From Clostridiales bacterium (GTDB lineage Bacteria; Bacillota; Clostridia; Christensenellales; DTU072), in NCBI GenBank assembly GCA_012838805.1, contig DUON01000010.1, forward strand, positions 1,072 to 65,071: DNA of 64,000 nt, given 5' to 3'. The position numbers and the translations under genes are program-made. Positions 4,205 to 43,508 of this stretch are shown here, piece after piece (within the stretch, counting starts at the first letter, position 1; every line of letters starts with the position of its first letter). The notes beneath the pieces were generated by a model, which had not been told where the DNA came from, did not search any database, and was given only the letters and a program-made list of their open reading frames with translations.

Positions 4205-5734
4205 ATGAAGACAATAAAAGACCTGAAGATACCCTTAGATAAGGATACTGAATTAAAGGAAATCGCCGCCCGAAAGGTCGGCTTAAAGCCTGAGTCCATA
4301 AAGACTTTTAATATAATAAAAAAGTCCATTGACGCCAGAAAAAAATCTGATATCAAATTTATATATTCCTTGGAATTGTCGGATAAGTTCATTCCCCCAA
4401 AAGAAGTATTCTTCCCTAAGGCAAAAAAGAGCGGCGACAGACCTATTGTTGTGGGGAGCGGACCTGCGGGGCTCTTTTGCGCCTTGTATCTAAGCCATGC
4501 GGGGCTAAAGCCTATAATTTTGGAGCGTGGCTCTAAGGTGGAAAAAAGAATAGAGGATGTCGGGAATTTCATTAAGACTGCGGTCTTGAACGAACAGAGC
4601 AATATCCAATTCGGCGAGGGCGGATCGGGTACCTTTTCGGATGGCAAGCTGACAACGATGACAAAAAGCCAATATCGAAAGGATATCTTAAGGCTGTTTG
4701 TCAAGTTCGGCGCACCCGAAGAGATACTGTATTTGAACAAGCCCCATATCGGCACAGACAACCTGATAAGGGTATTGAAGAATATCAGAGGAGAAATCAT
4801 AAGCTTGGGCGGAGAGTTTCATTTTGATACTTTAGTGGACGACATAATAATAAAGGATAACAAAGCTTTGGGCGTAAGAGCCAACAACAAAGAATTTATA
4901 AGCTCGCATATTGTCCTTGCCATAGGTCACAGTGCCAGAGACACATATAATATGCTGTACAATAAAGGCGTGTTCATGGAACAAAAAGAATTCTCGGTAG
5001 GTTTTAGGATTGAGCATTCGCAAAAGCTTATCAATCTAAGCCAATACGGCGAAAGATTTCATAACCATACGGCATTGGGGGCGGCGGATTATAAATTTGT
5101 CAGCCATACTCCCATAAGAAGCGTATACACCTTTTGTATGTGTCCGGGCGGTCAAGTGGTAGCGGCTGCAAGCCAAAAAGGAATGCTTGTCACCAACGGT
5201 ATGAGCACATACGCAAGAGACGGCAAAAACGCCAACAGCGCCATTCTTATAAACATTAAAAAAGAGGATATGGGCTCCCAAAACCCGCTTACGGGAATAC
5301 TTAAACAACAAGAATTTGAAAGGAAAGCTTTCCTATGGGGCGGCGAAAACTATATGGCGCCCGTTCAGCTTGTGGGAGACTTTTTAAGAGGCATCCCTTC
5401 CAAAAGCATAGGCGAAGTTAAGCCGTCGTATCCTATCGGAGTGAAACTATCGCCCCTTCATGAATTTTATGACAAGAGCTTTTATCAAAGTTTTTGCTTT
5501 GCCATAGAGGATATCGCCAAAAAAATGAAATACTTCAATATGTACGACGCCGTACTAACCGCAGCGGAGACAAGAAGTTCCGCACCTTTGAGAATTACAA
5601 GAGACCATACCTTTCAAAGCGTCTCCACAAAGAATCTTTATCCCGTCGGCGAAGGTTGCGGATATGCGGGGGGAATTATGAGCTCGGCAGCGGACGGCGT
5701 GAAAACAGCTTTATATATAATAGAAAACTCTTGA
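4205..5734 (+). CDS. FAD-dependent oxidoreductase (COG2509-type uncharacterised dehydrogenase)
   Basis: Dinucleotide-binding motif VVGSGPAGLFCALYL. The N-terminus MKTIKDLKIPLDKD... is the likely true start at 4205. The track extension from 4094 is AT-rich leader. Confidence 0.8.
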   Translation: MKTIKDLKIPLDKDTELKEIAARKVGLKPESIKTFNIIKKSIDARKKSDIKFIYSLELSDKFIPPKEVFFPKAKKSGDRPIVVGSGPAGLFCALYLSHAGLKPIILERGSKVEKRIEDVGNFIKTAVLNEQSNIQFGEGGSGTFSDGKLTTMTKSQYRKDILRLFVKFGAPEEILYLNKPHIGTDNLIRVLKNIRGEIISLGGEFHFDTLVDDIIIKDNKALGVRANNKEFISSHIVLAIGHSARDTYNMLYNKGVFMEQKEFSVGFRIEHSQKLINLSQYGERFHNHTALGAADYKFVSHTPIRSVYTFCMCPGGQVVAAASQKGMLVTNGMSTYARDGKNANSAILINIKKEDMGSQNPLTGILKQQEFERKAFLWGGENYMAPVQLVGDFLRGIPSKSIGEVKPSYPIGVKLSPLHEFYDKSFYQSFCFAIEDIAKKMKYFNMYDAVLTAAETRSSAPLRITRDHTFQSVSTKNLYPVGEGCGYAGGIMSSAADGVKTALYIIENS

Positions 5735-5772
5735 TATTCATATTATTCTCAAAGAATTTTGACTATAAAAAT

Positions 5773-6241
5773 AATTAGTTAGAACCTCTAACCGATTGTC
5801 GCATAAATTAGTTAGAACCTCTAACCGATTGTCGAATAAATTAGTTAGAACCTCTAACCGATTGTCGAATAAATTAGTTAGAACCCTATTATCAAATTAT
5901 TAGTTAGTGCCTCTAACCAGTTTATCAAGACCAAAACTACAACCAATTAAGAATCTGGAACTAATTGTTAGTTAGAACCCCTTACTAATTGAAAATTCAT
6001 CAGTTAAAATCTATAACCAATTGTTAGTTAGAACTCCTAACCAATCATCAAATTAATTAGTTAGAACCTCTAACCAATTATCACTTTAATTAGTTAGAAC
6101 TTTTAACCAATTGTCAAATATAAATAGTTAGAACCTCTAACTAATTGTTAAAAATATAATCAATACCTACAACCAATTGTAAAATATAATCAATACCTCT
6201 ACCCAATTGTAAACTTTAATTAGTTAAACCTCAAACTAATT
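5773..6241. repeat. tandem array of about 15 palindromic units, consensus AATTAGTTAGA-ACC-TCTAACCAATT, period about 33 bp
   Basis: Read directly. GTTAGA-N3-TCTAAC type cores start at 5778, 5811, 5844, 5903, 5971, 6003, 6027, 6060, 6093, 6127 and 6223. Decayed copies sit at 5877, 5937, 6161 and 6191. The first three 33-mers are near-identical. Confidence 0.9.
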
Positions 6242-6265
6242 ATGATTACTATCCCTCTAAAAAAT

Positions 6266-6309
6266 ATCATAAAAAGACAAAAGCCGTTATCTTATGAACG
6301 GCTTTTGTC
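6266..6309 (-). terminator. rho-independent terminator of hsp20
   Basis: Perfect 13-bp stem GACAAAAGCCGTT / AACGGCTTTTGTC (6276-6309) with an 8-nt loop. A T-run follows on the minus strand. Confidence 0.75.
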
Positions 6310-6337
6310 AATCACTATGAAATTGCTTAATCGAAAG

Positions 6338-6748
6338 CTATTCGATTATGATTTGCTTTCTTTTTTTGTCCGCATCTTTTTTGGGAACGGTTATTGACAA
6401 TATTCCATCCTCATATTTCGCCTTTATGCCGTCGGAGTCGATATTAGGAAGATATACCGCTCTTCTTTGAGAGACGAATCTTCTCTCCTTGTGGATATAG
6501 TTCTGTTCCTTTTGCTCGCTCTCCTCATCCTGAAAAGCATGAATGACAAGCTGGTTGTCCTCGGCGTGGATATCAATATTGCTCTTTTTCATTCCCGGCA
6601 GTTCCGCGTCGATAATGTACTCCTTTTCATTCTCTCTGACATCAATCTTCATATCGTTCGCCTTGGCATAAAAGGGAAAATCGTTGAAGAAATCGTCAAA
6701 CATGTTATAAAGACTCATTTGGTTTCTTCTTGTTCTCATTGGTAACAT
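6338..6748 (-). CDS. Hsp20/alpha-crystallin family small heat-shock protein
   Basis: The alpha-crystallin domain pattern is recognisable (…DVRENEKEYIIDAELPGMKKSNIDI…GILSITVPK). AAAGGAGG lies 11 nt upstream of the ATG at 6748. The track start at 6760 is a GTG inside the SD. Confidence 0.9.
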   Translation of the reverse strand: MLPMRTRRNQMSLYNMFDDFFNDFPFYAKANDMKIDVRENEKEYIIDAELPGMKKSNIDIHAEDNQLVIHAFQDEESEQKEQNYIHKERRFVSQRRAVYLPNIDSDGIKAKYEDGILSITVPKKDADKKRKQIIIE

Positions 6749-6809: not shown

Positions 6810-6837
6810 ATTATAACAGATAGATTTTTCTTGTCAA
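6810..6837 (-). promoter_or_regulatory. sigma-A type promoter of hsp20
   Basis: On the minus strand: TTGACA (6837-6832), a 16-nt spacer, TATAAT (6815-6810). Confidence 0.6.
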
Positions 6838-19192: not shown

Positions 19193-20593
19193 ATGAGGTC
19201 AAAATTGCAAGCAAAACACAATCACTATGATGTAATCATCATAGGCGGAGGCATAGGCGGCTTGATGACGGCTTATGCCCTTAGAAAAAAAGCAAAAGTT
19301 CTTTTAATAGAAAAAGGCAATCCCTTAAGCAAAAGGAATTGTCCTATCATAAGCGGAAAGAACCCGGTCTGCATGGGCTGTTCGCCTTGTGCGATTATGC
19401 AAGGGCTTGGGGGAGCGGGAGCTTATTCTGACGGAAAATATATCATTTCCACCGAATACGGCGGCTGGCTGACTTCTTTTTTAGATGCGGATACAGTTAT
19501 GAAATATATCCGAAAAGCCGACGATATCTTGGTCGAACACGGTGCTGATGCCAAAAAATACTTTCCAAATGATGACCTCAAACTCATGTGCTTAAAACAC
19601 GACTTGCATATGCAACAAGCAAAACTAAAGCATTTGGGCACTGACGAGAACTTCAATACAATGGTCAATTTGGTCAATACCATAAATGAGGATGTGGAGA
19701 TACTCACCCTTACTGACGCTTATGACATCGATAAAGAAACCAATACGGTATTTTATAAGAACAAGACCTCCTCTTCGGAGGTTAAAGGCAACAATATCGT
19801 CATCGCTGTAGGCAGAGCGGGAAGCGGTTTTTTGGTCAATTGGTGCAAAAAGAACGGTGTCAAGCTTTCAAACAACCAAGTGGATATCGGGGTGAGGGTG
19901 GAGCTTCCTCACCTGATATGGAAAGAGTTTAGTCAAAAGATATATGAGCCCAAAATTTGGTATAGAAGCAAGAGTTATGGCGATGTGACCAGAATGTTTT
20001 GCTTTAACGAAAGAGGAAGCGTGGTCGTGGAAAATACCGAAGGGGTGCTGACCGTCAACGGACATGCCTTCAAGCAGGAAGAAAAAAAGACCGAAAACAG
20101 CAACTTTGCCTTGCTGACCACCACAAAGTTCACACAGCCCTTTAATGAACCCATAGAATATGCCAAGTATGTGGCGTCGCTTGCCAACAAGATAAGCGGG
20201 GGCAGCGTACTTGTGCAAAGACTGGGTGACTTGATTATGGGCAGACGCTCAACCCAGCACCGCCTTATGGCGTCCACCACAAGACCCACATTGAAAGCAG
20301 TTCCCGGAGACCTAAGTCTGTGTATGCCTAAACGGCAGCTGGATAACATTGTGGAGACGCTTTATGCCCTTGACAAAGTCGCCCCCGGCACCGCCAACCA
20401 CGATACGCTGCTTTACGGCGTGGAATGCAAGTACTATTCGGCAAGACCTGAAACTCAAGAGGGCTTCAAGCTTAAGGGCGCAAACAATATCTACGCCATT
20501 GGCGACGGCGCGGGCTTTACAAGAAGCTTGTCACATGCCGCCGCTCATGGGCTTATTGTTGCGGATAATATTTTGTCGGCGAATGCTAAATAA
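19193..20593 (+). CDS. FAD-dependent oxidoreductase (second COG2509-type paralogue)
   Basis: Has YDVIIIGGGIGGLMTAYAL dinucleotide motif and a C-terminal IYAIGDGAGFTRS motif. The architecture matches the gene at 4205. Confidence 0.8.
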   Translation: MRSKLQAKHNHYDVIIIGGGIGGLMTAYALRKKAKVLLIEKGNPLSKRNCPIISGKNPVCMGCSPCAIMQGLGGAGAYSDGKYIISTEYGGWLTSFLDADTVMKYIRKADDILVEHGADAKKYFPNDDLKLMCLKHDLHMQQAKLKHLGTDENFNTMVNLVNTINEDVEILTLTDAYDIDKETNTVFYKNKTSSSEVKGNNIVIAVGRAGSGFLVNWCKKNGVKLSNNQVDIGVRVELPHLIWKEFSQKIYEPKIWYRSKSYGDVTRMFCFNERGSVVVENTEGVLTVNGHAFKQEEKKTENSNFALLTTTKFTQPFNEPIEYAKYVASLANKISGGSVLVQRLGDLIMGRRSTQHRLMASTTRPTLKAVPGDLSLCMPKRQLDNIVETLYALDKVAPGTANHDTLLYGVECKYYSARPETQEGFKLKGANNIYAIGDGAGFTRSLSHAAAHGLIVADNILSANAK

Positions 20594-40579: not shown

Positions 40580-40816
40580 ATGTACGATTGCTTAGATAAA
40601 AAACCTTGTTCAGCTAGCTGTTTTGGGAAGGAAATCCATCCCGTAAACTTGTTTCTTGTAGAACAAAAGAAATGCTGCAAACCCTGCTGCTGCAAACCCT
40701 GCTGCAAACCCTGCTGCAAACCCTGCTGCTGCAAACCCTGCTGCTGCAAGAAACCCTGCCCTCCAAAATGTTTTTGCATTCCGCTGCTTTTAGTGCTTTG
40801 TGGCAACTGCTGCTAA
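40580..40816 (+). CDS. small cysteine-rich CCKP-repeat protein (78 aa, 24 Cys)
   Basis: AAAGGAG lies 9 nt upstream of the ATG at 40580, and a strong terminator lies 23 nt after the stop. The protein is MYDCLDKKPCSASCFGKEIHPVNLFLVEQKKCCKPCCCKPCCKPCCKPCCCKPCCCKKPCPPKCFCIPLLLVLCGNCC. Confidence 0.7.
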   Translation: MYDCLDKKPCSASCFGKEIHPVNLFLVEQKKCCKPCCCKPCCKPCCKPCCCKPCCCKKPCPPKCFCIPLLLVLCGNCC

Positions 40817-42128: not shown

Positions 42129-43508
42129 ATGGACGACAAAGGATTGAGATCTGACAAGATGAGAAACCAACCAATGGGAAGACTGCTTTGGGGCATGTCC
42201 TTGCCGCCCATGCTTTCCATGCTTTCTCACGCACTTTATAATATTGTGGATTCCATATTCGTTTCCCATTACAATATGAAAGCTTTGGAGGCTATCGCAA
42301 TCGCCTTTCCCCTGCAAATGCTCATTATTGCCTTTGCTACGGGCATAGGCACAGGCTCCAATGCCCTTGTGGCAAAAAAATTGGGAGAGAAAAAGAAAAA
42401 AGAGGCTTCCCTTTCCGCTCAGACAGGACTTTTAATTACTCTTATTTCTGCGGCGCTGTTTATAATAATCGGCGTATTCACCACCAAACCCTTTATCAGC
42501 AGCTTTACCAACGACCCCGAAACAATTTCTTTAGGCGTTCAGTATCTGTCAATCGTGCTTATCTTCAGTCCGTTTGCGTTTGTGGAAATTCATAATTCAA
42601 AGATATTCCAAGCCACCGGCAATATGAAAGTACCCATGATAACCCAGACTTTGGGAGCGGTCATAAATGTCATCTTCGACCCCTTGCTTATTTTTGGAAT
42701 TGGGTTTTTTCCCGAACTGGGAATTAGGGGTGCGGCGATAGCCACCGTCGGCGGACAATTTTGTTCCATGCTTGCGGGGATACTTTTCTTTAGGTTCACC
42801 AAGCAAGATGTTAAACCCTTTTTTGGAAAAGGTTTTCGTTTTAATAAAGAGATAGTGTGGGGAATTATGAAAGTGGGATTGCCGACCACTATATTAAAAG
42901 GCGTGGGCAGCTTTACTGTCACCATACTCAATACAATATTAAGGACATACATAAACGCCATTATGGTCATGGGAATTTATATCCGTCTTCAATCTTTTGT
43001 CTTTATGCCAGTATTCGGGCTCACCCAAGGCGCTTTGCCCATAATGAGCTATAACTATGGCGCCAAGAATAAAAAGAGATACTATAAAGCACTTAAACTC
43101 TCACTTATTGCAGCGGCGGCGATTATGGCGATAGGAACCTTGGTCTTTCAGTTTTTCCCTCAGGCTTTGCTGTCGCTTTTCAACGCCGAAGGAGAGGTCA
43201 TGGCTTTGGGCGTACAAGCTTTCAGGCTGTTAAGCATAAGCTTTATCTTTGCGGCGGTTGGCATTATGCTGACAATAATCTTCCAGTCGCTCACCAACGG
43301 ACTTGCTGCGCTTTGCCTTTCGCTTATGCGTCAAATCGCGCTCTTGATACCTCTTGCTTTTCTATTGAGTCATTTTATCGGACTAAACGGCATATGGCTG
43401 AGCTATTCCATAGCGGAATTTATAAGCATAGCGGTTTTTGTGCCTATAGCTCTGGCTTTCATTAGAAAAAAATTTGATTTAAAAAACAGCGGTCATGAAG
43501 AAATATAA
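42129..43508 (+). CDS. MATE family efflux transporter
   Basis: 459 aa with 12 TM segments and typical MATE N-terminal motifs. AAGGAG lies 5 nt upstream. Confidence 0.9.
   Translation: MDDKGLRSDKMRNQPMGRLLWGMSLPPMLSMLSHALYNIVDSIFVSHYNMKALEAIAIAFPLQMLIIAFATGIGTGSNALVAKKLGEKKKKEASLSAQTGLLITLISAALFIIIGVFTTKPFISSFTNDPETISLGVQYLSIVLIFSPFAFVEIHNSKIFQATGNMKVPMITQTLGAVINVIFDPLLIFGIGFFPELGIRGAAIATVGGQFCSMLAGILFFRFTKQDVKPFFGKGFRFNKEIVWGIMKVGLPTTILKGVGSFTVTILNTILRTYINAIMVMGIYIRLQSFVFMPVFGLTQGALPIMSYNYGAKNKKRYYKALKLSLIAAAAIMAIGTLVFQFFPQALLSLFNAEGEVMALGVQAFRLLSISFIFAAVGIMLTIIFQSLTNGLAALCLSLMRQIALLIPLAFLLSHFIGLNGIWLSYSIAEFISIAVFVPIALAFIRKKFDLKNSGHEEI

What the first reader, a model, noticed from the sequence alone, without database searches (positions are those of the whole stretch)
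5773..6241. Array of about 15 phased palindromic ~33-bp units filling a convergent intergenic gap
The ~600-bp gap between the 3' ends of the FAD-oxidoreductase gene (+) and hsp20 (-) is almost entirely tandem copies of AATTAGTTAGA-ACC-TCTAACCAATT, an 11-3-11 dyad with core GTTAGA-N3-TCTAAC. Intact cores start at 5778, 5811, 5844, 5903, 5971, 6003, 6027, 6060, 6093, 6127 and 6223. Decayed copies sit at 5877, 5937, 6161 and 6191. The first three units are near-identical 33-mers, which suggests recent amplification. Distal units have diverged in their linkers but keep the dyad, which suggests selection on the palindrome. Spacing is mostly 32-34 bp, about three helical turns, so sites would face the same side of the helix. 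The array is not a promoter, because both neighbours end here, and not a CRISPR. The organisation resembles plasmid iteron or centromere (parC-type) arrays, or a multi-operator platform for a dimeric DNA-binding protein. The upstream FAD gene has no terminator of its own. Read-through would therefore produce a string of about 11 stem-loops with ACC (plus strand) or GGU (minus strand) triloops carrying ACCUC / GAGGU motifs. That could act as a REP-like mRNA stabiliser or as a protein or ribosome-binding decoy RNA. I know of no described element with this consensus.
Basis: partly seen in the sequence, partly recalled or inferred. Interest (0 to 1): 0.75.

Follow-up and report, generated by a model that had tools for sequence, protein, structure and literature searches.

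The report
Tandem array of MarR-operator-like palindromes
A 470-bp stretch between two converging genes of an uncultured digester Firmicute is a lineage-specific tandem amplification of one 25-bp palindrome that has the sequence of a MarR-type repressor binding site; it is real and unusual, but nothing shows that it does more than an ordinary minisatellite.

Summary
Window 5773-6241 is a ~33-bp-period array of 15-16 units. Nine or ten of them keep the dyad GTTAGA-N3-TCTAAC, and the motif occurs nowhere else in the 64 kb.

The array lies between the stop codon of a FAD-oxidoreductase gene and a bidirectional terminator (6276-6309) shared with hsp20. It is therefore 3'-UTR DNA of the FAD gene.

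It is specific to one clonal, uncultured Bacillota species. The nearest relative (73% FAD protein identity) has a single copy of the palindrome at the same place. Relatives at 59-61% have ordinary terminators there.

The array grew by local duplication: three near-identical units at one end, and decayed units that were themselves duplicated. One assembly lacks exactly one unit.

The consensus is not unknown. TTAGTTAGA-N3-TCTAACTAA is the GTTAG-N5-CTAAC operator found in the own promoters of four FabT-like MarR regulators of Clostridia. It is one base longer in its spacer than the S. aureus MepR operator.

Best reading (confidence 0.4): an amplified, promoter-less cluster of MarR-type operator sites that would soak up such a repressor. 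No cognate MarR was found and selection is not shown.

Rivals are a neutral VNTR and a REP325-like string of 3'-UTR hairpins. Iteron, centromere, CRISPR and dispersed-REP readings are not supported.

The parts
4205..5734 (+). FAD-dependent oxidoreductase gene (509 aa from the ATG at 4205). The array lies in its 3' untranslated region.
   Evidence: ORF. Pfam DUF8436, HI0933_like and FAD-depend_C. The exact protein is found on contigs in 80 collection blocks.
5773..6241 (.). The whole tandem array. It has 15-16 units of a 25-bp palindrome (consensus AATTAGTTAGA-ACC-TCTAACCAATT) plus a 1-11-bp linker (consensus about GTCAAATAT).
5773..5871 (+). Units U1-U3 (25-mers at 5773-5797, 5806-5830 and 5839-5863, each with an 8-bp linker). 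These are three near-identical 33-mers and the youngest duplication. One assembly (L004) has only two of them.
   Evidence: TRF reports 98% matches. Logan contigs break here.
5872..5885 (+). U4: left half-site only (AATTAGTTAGAACC). The right arm has decayed.
5898..5922 (+). U5: TATTAGTTAGT-GCC-TCTAACCAGTT. The GTTAG-N5-CTAAC core is intact.
5932..5966 (+). Two right-arm remnants (CTACAACCAATT at 5937-5948 and TCTGGAACTAATT at 5954-5966) with no left half-site.
   Evidence: Family D4.
5966..6046 (+). U7 (5966-5990), U8 (5998-6022) and U9 (6022-6046). Their cores carry 1-2 mismatches. U8 and U9 are only 24 bp apart and share an AATT.
6055..6146 (+). U10 (6055-6079, equal to the consensus), U11 (6088-6112) and U12 (6122-6146). 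These are the best-preserved old units.
   Evidence: Single-unit RNA hairpins fold at -6.3 to -10.6 kcal/mol.
6151..6210 (+). U13 and U14. This is a 30-bp tandem duplication of a unit that had already lost its left half-site (AATCAATACCTACAACCAATT). On the minus strand each reads as a weak promoter-like TTTACA-16-GATTAT.
   Evidence: TRF period 30, 87% matches. Family D5 at 90%. Promoter scan.
6218..6241 (+). U15: the last unit, with a 1-nt deletion in the left arm and one mismatch in the right arm.
6276..6309 (.). Bidirectional intrinsic terminator (GACAAAAGCCGTT-N8-AACGGCTTTTGTC). It serves hsp20 directly and is the first terminator downstream of the FAD gene.
   Evidence: Inverted repeat I16, 13/13 pairs. 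Terminator scan. Folds at -20.2 kcal/mol, z = -7.5.
6338..6748 (-). hsp20 gene (136 aa as called on public contigs). Its perfect sigma-70-type promoter is at 6837-6810.
   Evidence: Pfam HSP20. Promoter matches 12/12 with TG.

Best explanation
**What it is**
The array is a lineage-specific minisatellite. It arose by repeated local tandem duplication (replication slippage or unequal recombination) of one 33-bp module. The module is a 25-bp palindrome plus a short linker.

**The palindrome**
The palindrome is of the MarR-family operator type. It has two GTTAG half-sites in inverted orientation, five bases apart, with AT-rich flanks (TTAGTTAGA-N3-TCTAAC[C/T]AA). This is the same site that lies across the transcription start of fabT-like marR-fabH operons in Clostridia. 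It has one more spacer base than the MepR operator of S. aureus.

**History**
A single copy stood just after the FAD gene's stop codon in the common ancestor with the nearest known relative. In this species it was amplified to about 15 copies, of which 9-10 still have both half-sites.

**How it would work**
If the organism makes a GTTAG-recognising MarR dimer, which is likely for a Bacillota genome, the locus would bind up to about ten dimers. No promoter would be repressed there. It would act as a binding-site sink (decoy) for that repressor. It might also act as a protein roadblock in the 3' UTR of the FAD gene, upstream of the shared terminator.

**Shown**
- The anatomy.
- Growth by duplication.
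- Confinement of the motif to this locus within the 64 kb.
- A single copy in the relative.
- Identity of the motif with MarR operators elsewhere.

**Inferred**
- That a MarR of this organism binds the units.
- That such binding has any consequence.
- That it is selected. I put the adaptive version at only about 0.15.
For: **Array anatomy and confinement to one locus**
-.

**Growth by duplication**
- U1-U3 are near-identical, and decayed units are duplicated at 6151-6210.
- One MAG (L004) lacks exactly one 33-bp unit, while seven other contigs are identical.

**History in relatives**
- In L020/L021 (73% FAD identity), one palindrome AATTAGTTAGAAGTTCTAATTAATT starts 6 nt after the stop codon.
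- The same MAG has a second, perfect copy with the same central triplet in L011.
- L022, L070 and L071 (59-61%) have ordinary GC-rich terminators there and no unit.

**Operator identity**
- Of 10 exact genome hits, three abut MarR-family genes in promoter position. Two of those are followed by fabH.
- Two more homologues, about 50% identical (L079, L080), carry TTAGTTAGT-AAA-ACTAAT just after their -10 box.
- The MepR operator is TATTTAGTTAGATATCTAACTAAATA, with GTTAG as the recognised signature and AT-rich flanks for the wings (PMC3936728).

**Conservation**
- The 25-mers are better conserved than the linkers. About 0.85 against about 0.7 identity to consensus, and indels fall in the linkers (and my count).
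Against: - No MarR-family gene lies in the 64-kb window or 5.8 kb upstream of it.
- The species' own FabT-like protein could not be identified among the best 120 of 791 family hits.
- The units are not in a promoter, which is where every documented operator of this type lies.
- Conservation is as high in the central triplet as in the half-sites. This fits plain common descent as well as it fits binding.
- Five or six units have lost a half-site, and decayed units were duplicated.
- Spacing is not strictly phased (24-34 bp).
- Seven of the ten exact genome hits are not next to a MarR gene. One of them is a plain terminator hairpin (L012), so the sequence alone does not prove an operator.
- Within-species data carry no information, because all samples are clonal.
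Confidence: 0.4

Rival explanations
1. Neutral minisatellite (VNTR). A palindromic sequence downstream of the FAD gene happened to be slippage-prone and was amplified. The units are decaying, nothing binds them specifically, and the resemblance to MarR operators is historical or coincidental.
For: - Conservation is uniform across arms, loop and flanks, and there are no compensatory changes.
- Five or six of 15 units are decayed.
- Decayed units were duplicated at 6151-6210.
- One assembly differs in copy number.
- The array is absent from relatives at 59-61% and single-copy at 73%.
- No regulator gene is nearby.
- Spacing is irregular (24-34 bp).
Against: - An 18/18 match of the arms to a family-wide MarR operator is unlikely by chance for an arbitrary palindrome.
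- The 25-mers are better kept than the linkers.
- A 470-bp non-coding array whose old units differ by 10-30% has survived despite the deletion bias of bacterial genomes. This last point is an inference.
Confidence: 0.3
2. RNA-level element. The array is transcribed as the 575-nt 3' UTR of the FAD mRNA. Its string of about 10 stem-loops acts like E. coli REP325, as a barrier to 3' exonucleases (mRNA stabiliser), as a partial terminator, or both.
For: - The array lies between the stop codon (5734) and the first terminator (6276-6309), and no terminator lies in between.
- In L020 the single palindrome occupies the place where more distant relatives have their terminator.
- Units fold better than shuffles, at -5.5 to -10.6 kcal/mol.
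- Precedent: REP325 is a dual terminator and stabiliser in a 3' UTR (bioRxiv 10.64898/2026.03.23.713779).
Against: - The stems are AT-rich and weak, with an A.C mismatch on the plus strand in most units.
- There is no U-tract after the units.
- There are no compensatory substitutions. Changes break pairs (and inspection of each unit).
- Nothing explains why a hairpin should carry the exact MarR half-site.
- A strong terminator follows anyway.
- Rfam finds nothing.
Confidence: 0.15
3. REP/REPIN- or MITE-like selfish palindromic element. It inserts at gene 3' ends and clusters locally.
For: - The relative's MAG has copies at two unlinked loci, L011 and L020.
- The L020 copy aligns best in the opposite orientation to the window units (25/28).
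- The location is extragenic and 3' of a gene.
Against: - There is no copy outside the array in 64 kb.
- The relative's whole MAG has only one exact copy.
- All units have the same orientation, unlike BIMEs.
- No Y1-transposase (RAYT) or IS gene lies nearby.
- There are no terminal repeats or target duplications.
- There is no match in plasmids, phages or viral contigs.
Confidence: 0.07
4. Replication iterons or a partition centromere (parC / tubC-type) of an integrated or former plasmid.
For: Only the general look supports this: many short repeats at a roughly regular spacing.
Against: - No rep, par or tub gene lies within about 10 kb. The neighbours are housekeeping genes in conserved synteny with relatives: GS-III, FAD, hsp20, uxaC.
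- There is no plasmid or phage similarity.
- Cumulative GC skew runs straight through.
- The units are dyads, not direct iterons.
Confidence: 0.02

Closest known systems
MarR-family operators with the GTTAG signature: MepR of S. aureus and FabT-type fatty-acid synthesis repressors
   Same: - Inverted GTTAG/CTAAC half-sites with AT-rich flanks.
- The extended arms TTAGTTAGA / TCTAACTAA are identical to the palindromised MepR site (PMC3936728).
- The 5-bp spacing equals that of the sites in the own promoters of four FabT-like marR-fabH operons.
- From my own knowledge, not checked here, it also equals the GTTTG-N5-CAAA(T/C) FabT site of S. pneumoniae.
   Different: - Known operators are single or double sites that overlap -35/-10/TSS next to the regulator or its target.
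- Here there are 9-10 intact and 5-6 decayed sites in tandem, with no promoter, between two gene ends.
- No MarR gene lies within at least 58 kb on one side and 11 kb on the other.
- MepR uses a 4-bp spacer.
E. coli REP clusters (BIME-2, e.g. REP325 between yjdM and yjdN)
   Same: - A tandem cluster of extragenic palindromic units with linkers in a 3' UTR.
- The cluster is transcribed with the upstream gene.
- It is documented to act as a partial terminator and mRNA stabiliser.
   Different: - REPs are GC-rich and stable, and present in hundreds of copies per genome.
- They alternate in orientation within BIMEs and are tied to RAYT transposases.
- Here the units are AT-rich and weak, all in one orientation, and not dispersed within 64 kb.
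Intergenic minisatellites / VNTRs (e.g. mycobacterial MIRUs, pneumococcal boxB arrays)
   Same: - Head-to-tail units of tens of bp.
- Growth by local duplication.
- A mix of young identical and old decayed units.
- A copy-number difference between strains.
   Different: - MIRU and BOX units belong to dispersed families and are not operator-like dyads.
- This array is, as far as seen, a single locus.
Chromosomal titration loci such as datA and the DnaA-box clusters (own knowledge)
   Same: The concept is the same: a non-promoter cluster of high-affinity sites that sequesters a DNA-binding regulator.
   Different: - Those bind DnaA and have demonstrated function.
- Here the protein is unidentified and the function untested.
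Plasmid iterons / parC-type centromeres
   Same: Many short repeats at roughly regular spacing.
   Different: - There are no adjacent rep or par genes.
- The context is chromosomal and syntenic.
- The repeats are dyad-symmetric rather than direct units.

Membership tests
MarR-family (MepR/FabT-type) operator | Inverted repeat of GTTAG-like half-sites 4-5 bp apart with AT-rich flanks | tested here: met
   Nine units match GTTAG-N5-CTAAC with at most 1 mismatch. The arms equal the MepR palindrome and the sites before FabT-like MarR genes.
MarR-family (MepR/FabT-type) operator | Site overlaps the promoter or transcription start of the regulator gene or of a regulated gene | tested here: not met
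   The array lies between two 3' ends. Only weak promoter-like matches (9 of 12) occur inside it.
MarR-family (MepR/FabT-type) operator | A cognate MarR-family protein is encoded nearby or elsewhere in the genome | tested here: inconclusive
   None is found in the window or 5.8 kb upstream. The family search could not single out this species' protein.
MarR-family (MepR/FabT-type) operator | Specific binding by the dimeric protein | not testable with these tools
   Needs EMSA, DAP-seq or ChIP.
REP / BIME / REPIN elements | Tens to hundreds of dispersed extragenic copies per genome | tested here: not met
   There are no copies outside the array in 64 kb. The relative's MAG has one exact copy. 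A whole-genome count for this species was not possible.
REP / BIME / REPIN elements | Clusters made of units in alternating orientation; association with a RAYT (Y1 transposase) | tested here: not met
   All units are in direct register. No transposase appears among the called genes.
Plasmid iterons / partition centromere | Adjacent rep or par/tub genes; plasmid or phage context | tested here: not met
   Neighbours are housekeeping genes in conserved synteny. There is no hit in PLSDB or INPHARED. No GC-skew turn occurs.
CRISPR array | Repeats of 23-50 bp separated by unique spacers of similar length; cas genes | tested here: not met
   Linkers are 1-11 bp and homologous to each other. No cas genes are present.
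Minisatellite / VNTR | Head-to-tail units with evidence of ongoing duplication or deletion and copy-number differences between strains | tested here: met
   TRF results. Nested duplications. L004 lacks one unit. Only one variant was seen among about 8 full-length contigs, and an assembly artefact is not excluded.
Intrinsic terminator / 3'-UTR stabiliser hairpins (REP325-like) | Lies in the transcribed 3' UTR downstream of a stop codon | tested here: met
   The stop is at 5734. The first terminator is at 6276-6309. Transcription itself was not observed.
Intrinsic terminator / 3'-UTR stabiliser hairpins (REP325-like) | Stable stem (GC-rich, U-tract for terminators) maintained by compensatory changes | tested here: not met
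   Units fold at -5.5 to -10.6 kcal/mol against -20.2 for the real terminator. There is no U-tract, and all variant positions break pairs (and inspection).

The most novel reading that the evidence does not exclude
The array would be a naturally evolved transcription-factor sponge. About ten tandem copies of the operator of a FabT/MepR-like MarR repressor, kept away from any promoter, would buffer or set the threshold of that repressor's regulon (for example fatty-acid synthesis or efflux). When occupied, they would form a ligand-sensitive roadblock at the end of the FAD gene. Copy number, changed by slippage, would then be a heritable tuning knob.
Probability: 0.15. Interest if true: 0.7.

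Novelty: new variant of a known kind. Interest (0 to 1): 0.35.

Why it matters
If a MarR-type repressor really occupies this array, it would be a rare natural example in bacteria of a promoter-less decoy-site cluster for a transcription factor. Its capacity could change by repeat slippage. That concept is known from datA/DnaA and from synthetic biology, but I know of no such case for MarR regulators.

If the array is only a minisatellite, it still shows how a single operator- or hairpin-like palindrome at a gene's 3' end can be blown up into a 470-bp array within one lineage. It would also be a usable strain-typing marker for an abundant, uncultured digester organism. Either way the biological weight is modest until binding or transcript data exist.

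Tried and rejected
1. **Exact-pattern scans of public collections.** I scanned genome contigs and metagenome contigs for TTAGTTAGANNNTCTAACYRATT.
   - Both returned only single sites.
   - Neither recovered the window's own array, although it holds four exact matches.
   - The collection masks some repeats as N (seen in L011 4906-5004). The scans may therefore be blind to tandem arrays, and 'no other arrays' is not evidence.
   - Most metagenome hits are one gut Coprobacillaceae terminator hairpin.
2. **Plasmid, phage and viral searches**. No array turned up. Six single palindromes in viral contigs were not followed up.
3. **Rfam,** at permissive and gathering thresholds. Nothing meaningful.
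4. **Finding the species' own MarR** by a family search and matching contig sizes. This failed. Only the best 120 of 791 hits are listed, and none has the species' contig signature.
5. **Within-species comparison**. All samples are clonal, so there is no variation to read selection from, apart from one missing unit.
6. **Whole-array RNA folds**. z is about -8 on both strands, but that is inevitable for repeated palindromes, so it is uninformative.
7. **Coding reading.** The 33-bp period would give 11-aa repeats, but only a 35-aa TTG ORF spans units 1-3. Rejected.
8. **Other operator matches by eye.** CtsR, CIRCE, OhrR and UxuR/ExuR operators were considered. Spacing or half-sites do not fit.
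9. **Flank homology with the relative.** I tried to align the window array's flanks with those of the L020 single unit. Only the unit itself aligns.

Full report
**1. The observation**

Window 5735-6337 is the 603-bp gap between two converging genes. One is a FAD-dependent oxidoreductase gene (+, stop at 5734). The other is hsp20 (-, stop at 6338).

Tandem Repeats Finder reports three features:
- a 33-bp period at 5773-5885 (98% matches)
- a 33-bp period at 6024-6243 (74% matches)
- a 30-bp duplication at 6151-6220

The core GTTAGA-N3-TCTAAC, with up to 2 mismatches, occurs 10 times in the array. The only other hit in 64 kb is in a tRNA T-arm. Shuffles give 2.5 hits on average, and 0 of 100 reach 11. 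GTTAG-N5-CTAAC and the 9-mer TTAGTTAGA give the same picture.

By hand I align 15-16 units to the consensus AATTAGTTAGA-ACC-TCTAACCAATT plus a linker of about GTCAAATAT.
- Nine or ten units keep both half-sites.
- Five or six are half-units: 5872, 5937, 5954, 6154, 6184, and 6218 (which has a deletion).

The spacing is 24-34 bp rather than strictly phased. A strong bidirectional terminator at 6276-6309 was overlooked. Because of that terminator, the array lies in the 3' untranslated region of the FAD gene and not in the hsp20 transcript.

**2. Whose genome, and how old is the array**

The FAD protein is found unchanged on contigs in 80 collection blocks. These are metagenomes and MAGs labelled 'Bacillota bacterium'. 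The eight contigs that span the gap are identical over the array. The exception is GCA_049652505.1 (L004), which lacks exactly one of the three leading 33-bp units. Logan contigs break in those units. The species is clonal, so within-species comparison says nothing about selection.

No relatives were found between 100% and 73% protein identity.

| Relative | FAD identity | What follows the FAD gene |
|---|---|---|
| GCA_964626765.1, 'uncultured Christensenella sp.' (L020/L021) | 73% | One palindrome, AATTAGTTAGAAGTTCTAATTAATT, starting 6 nt after the stop codon. No other terminator. |
| L022, L070, L071 | 59-61% | Ordinary GC-rich terminators. No unit. In L022 the FAD-hsp20 gap is only 80 bp. 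|

The same 73% MAG has a second, perfect copy (AATTAGTTAGAGGTTCTAACTAATT, the same central triplet on the other strand). It lies in an AT-rich spacer upstream of a DUF6530 gene (L011).

A single unit at this position is therefore probably ancestral to the two closest lineages. The array is an expansion in the window's lineage. Only the unit itself aligns between the two species. It aligns slightly better in reverse (25/28), so independent insertion cannot be excluded.

**3. How it grew**

- U1-U3 are near-identical 33-mers.
- U13-U14 are a 30-bp duplication of a unit that had already lost its left arm.
- The remnant CTACAACCAATT recurs at 5937 and 6167.

This is the signature of repeated local slippage or unequal exchange, with decay in between. 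In other words, it is a minisatellite.

**4. What the unit is**

I scanned one genome for each of 185,579 species for TTAGTTAGANNNTCTAACYRATT. The scan gave ten single sites in unrelated taxa.
- Three lie in promoter position directly beside MarR-family genes. Two of those genes are followed by fabH, the arrangement of fabT.
- Two further homologues, about 50% identical and fetched independently of the motif, carry TTAGTTAGT-AAA-ACTAAT just downstream of their -10 box.
- GTTAG-N5-CTAAC is thus the conserved operator type of this MarR subfamily.

The crystallographically studied MepR operator is TATTTAGTTAGATATCTAACTAAATA. GTTAG is the recognised signature, and the wings sit in the AT-rich flanks (PMC3936728). 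The array unit differs from it only by one extra central base.

The other seven genome hits are not MarR-linked. One, and most of the 47 metagenome hits, is a plain terminator hairpin of a gut Coprobacillaceae. The sequence alone is therefore suggestive, not proof.

**5. Tests of the readings**

*DNA-binding platform*
- The motif fits.
- The 25-mers are better conserved (about 0.85) than the linkers (about 0.7, with indels).
- Conservation is equally high in the central triplet and in the half-sites.
- The sites are not in a promoter.
- No MarR gene lies in the window or its upstream flank.
- I could not identify the species' own FabT-like protein.

*RNA hairpins*
- The position in the 3' UTR fits. 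It recalls REP325 of E. coli, which is now described as a dual terminator and stabiliser.
- The stems are weak: -5.5 to -10.6 kcal/mol against -20.2 for the real terminator.
- There is no U-tract.
- Every variant position breaks a pair rather than compensating.
- Rfam finds nothing.

*REP-like dispersed element*
- No copies lie outside the array in 64 kb.
- All units have one orientation.
- There is no transposase.

*Iteron or centromere*
- There are no rep or par genes.
- The context is syntenic and chromosomal.
- There is no plasmid or phage match.
- GC skew runs straight through.

*CRISPR or coding*
- Excluded by linker length and stop codons.

**6. Verdict**

What it is, with high confidence: a lineage-specific tandem amplification of a single palindromic module, in the 3' UTR of a FAD-oxidoreductase gene.

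What the module is, with moderate confidence: a MarR-type (FabT/MepR-like) operator dyad.

How it works, inferred at about 0.4: its intact units would bind such a repressor away from any promoter. The locus would then behave as a sink of about ten sites, and possibly as a roadblock.

Whether this is selected is open; I put the adaptive version at about 0.15. A purely neutral VNTR (0.3) and a REP325-like 3'-UTR hairpin array (0.15) remain live.

**7. Caveat on the public scans**

Neither large scan recovered the window's own array. The genome collection masks some repeats as N (seen in L011). The absence of similar arrays elsewhere is therefore not established.

Noticed in passing
window 5829-5835 and 5862-5868 (also 5796-5802 with one change): The linkers of units 1-3 contain TGTCGAA, the canonical Spo0A '0A box' heptamer. 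It occurs twice exactly and once as TGTCGCA. This is probably chance, in a unit that was copied three times.
   Followed up: no
window 6151-6213, minus strand: The two decayed 30-bp units each read as a weak sigma-70-like promoter (TTTACA-16-GATTAT). They point towards the 3' end of the FAD gene. They match 9 of 12 positions only.
   Followed up: no
window 6810-6837, minus strand: hsp20 has a perfect consensus promoter, TTGACA-16-TATAAT with an upstream TG (12/12). No CIRCE- or CtsR-type operator was looked for in its leader.
   Followed up: no
window 40667-40754: A second tandem repeat of 12-15 bp (or 27 bp) units, TGCTGCAAACCCTGC, in 5.5 copies. It lies downstream of a trypsin-like protease gene, inside a 50-aa ORF called on public contigs.
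   Followed up: no
L011 4400-4470 and 4600-5100: In the relative's MAG, the spacer that holds the single perfect palindrome also has a run of (T)ACTAAATT-like short repeats before the DUF6530 gene. It also has a roughly 240-bp tandem duplication that is partly masked as N in the collection.
   Followed up: no
L012 7200-7260 and about 30 human-gut metagenome loci (L023-L068): A common gut Coprobacillaceae species has the same TTAGTTAGA-N3-TCTAACTAA core. There it is the middle of a 19-bp-stem terminator hairpin between two converging genes (GGGAAACTAAATTAGTTAGA...TCTAACTAATTAGTTTCCC).
   Followed up: partly
window 42129-43508: A MATE-family efflux gene, the class that MepR controls in S. aureus, lies 36 kb from the array. 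It has no MarR gene beside it and no GTTAG dyad in its upstream region.
   Followed up: partly
window 19193-20593: A second, more distant FAD-dependent protein with the same FAD-depend_C domain, a paralogue of the gene that precedes the array.
   Followed up: no
L081-L086 (IMG/VR contigs): Six viral contigs each carry one perfect TTAGTTAGA-N3-TCTAACTAA palindrome. Their gene context was not examined.
   Followed up: no
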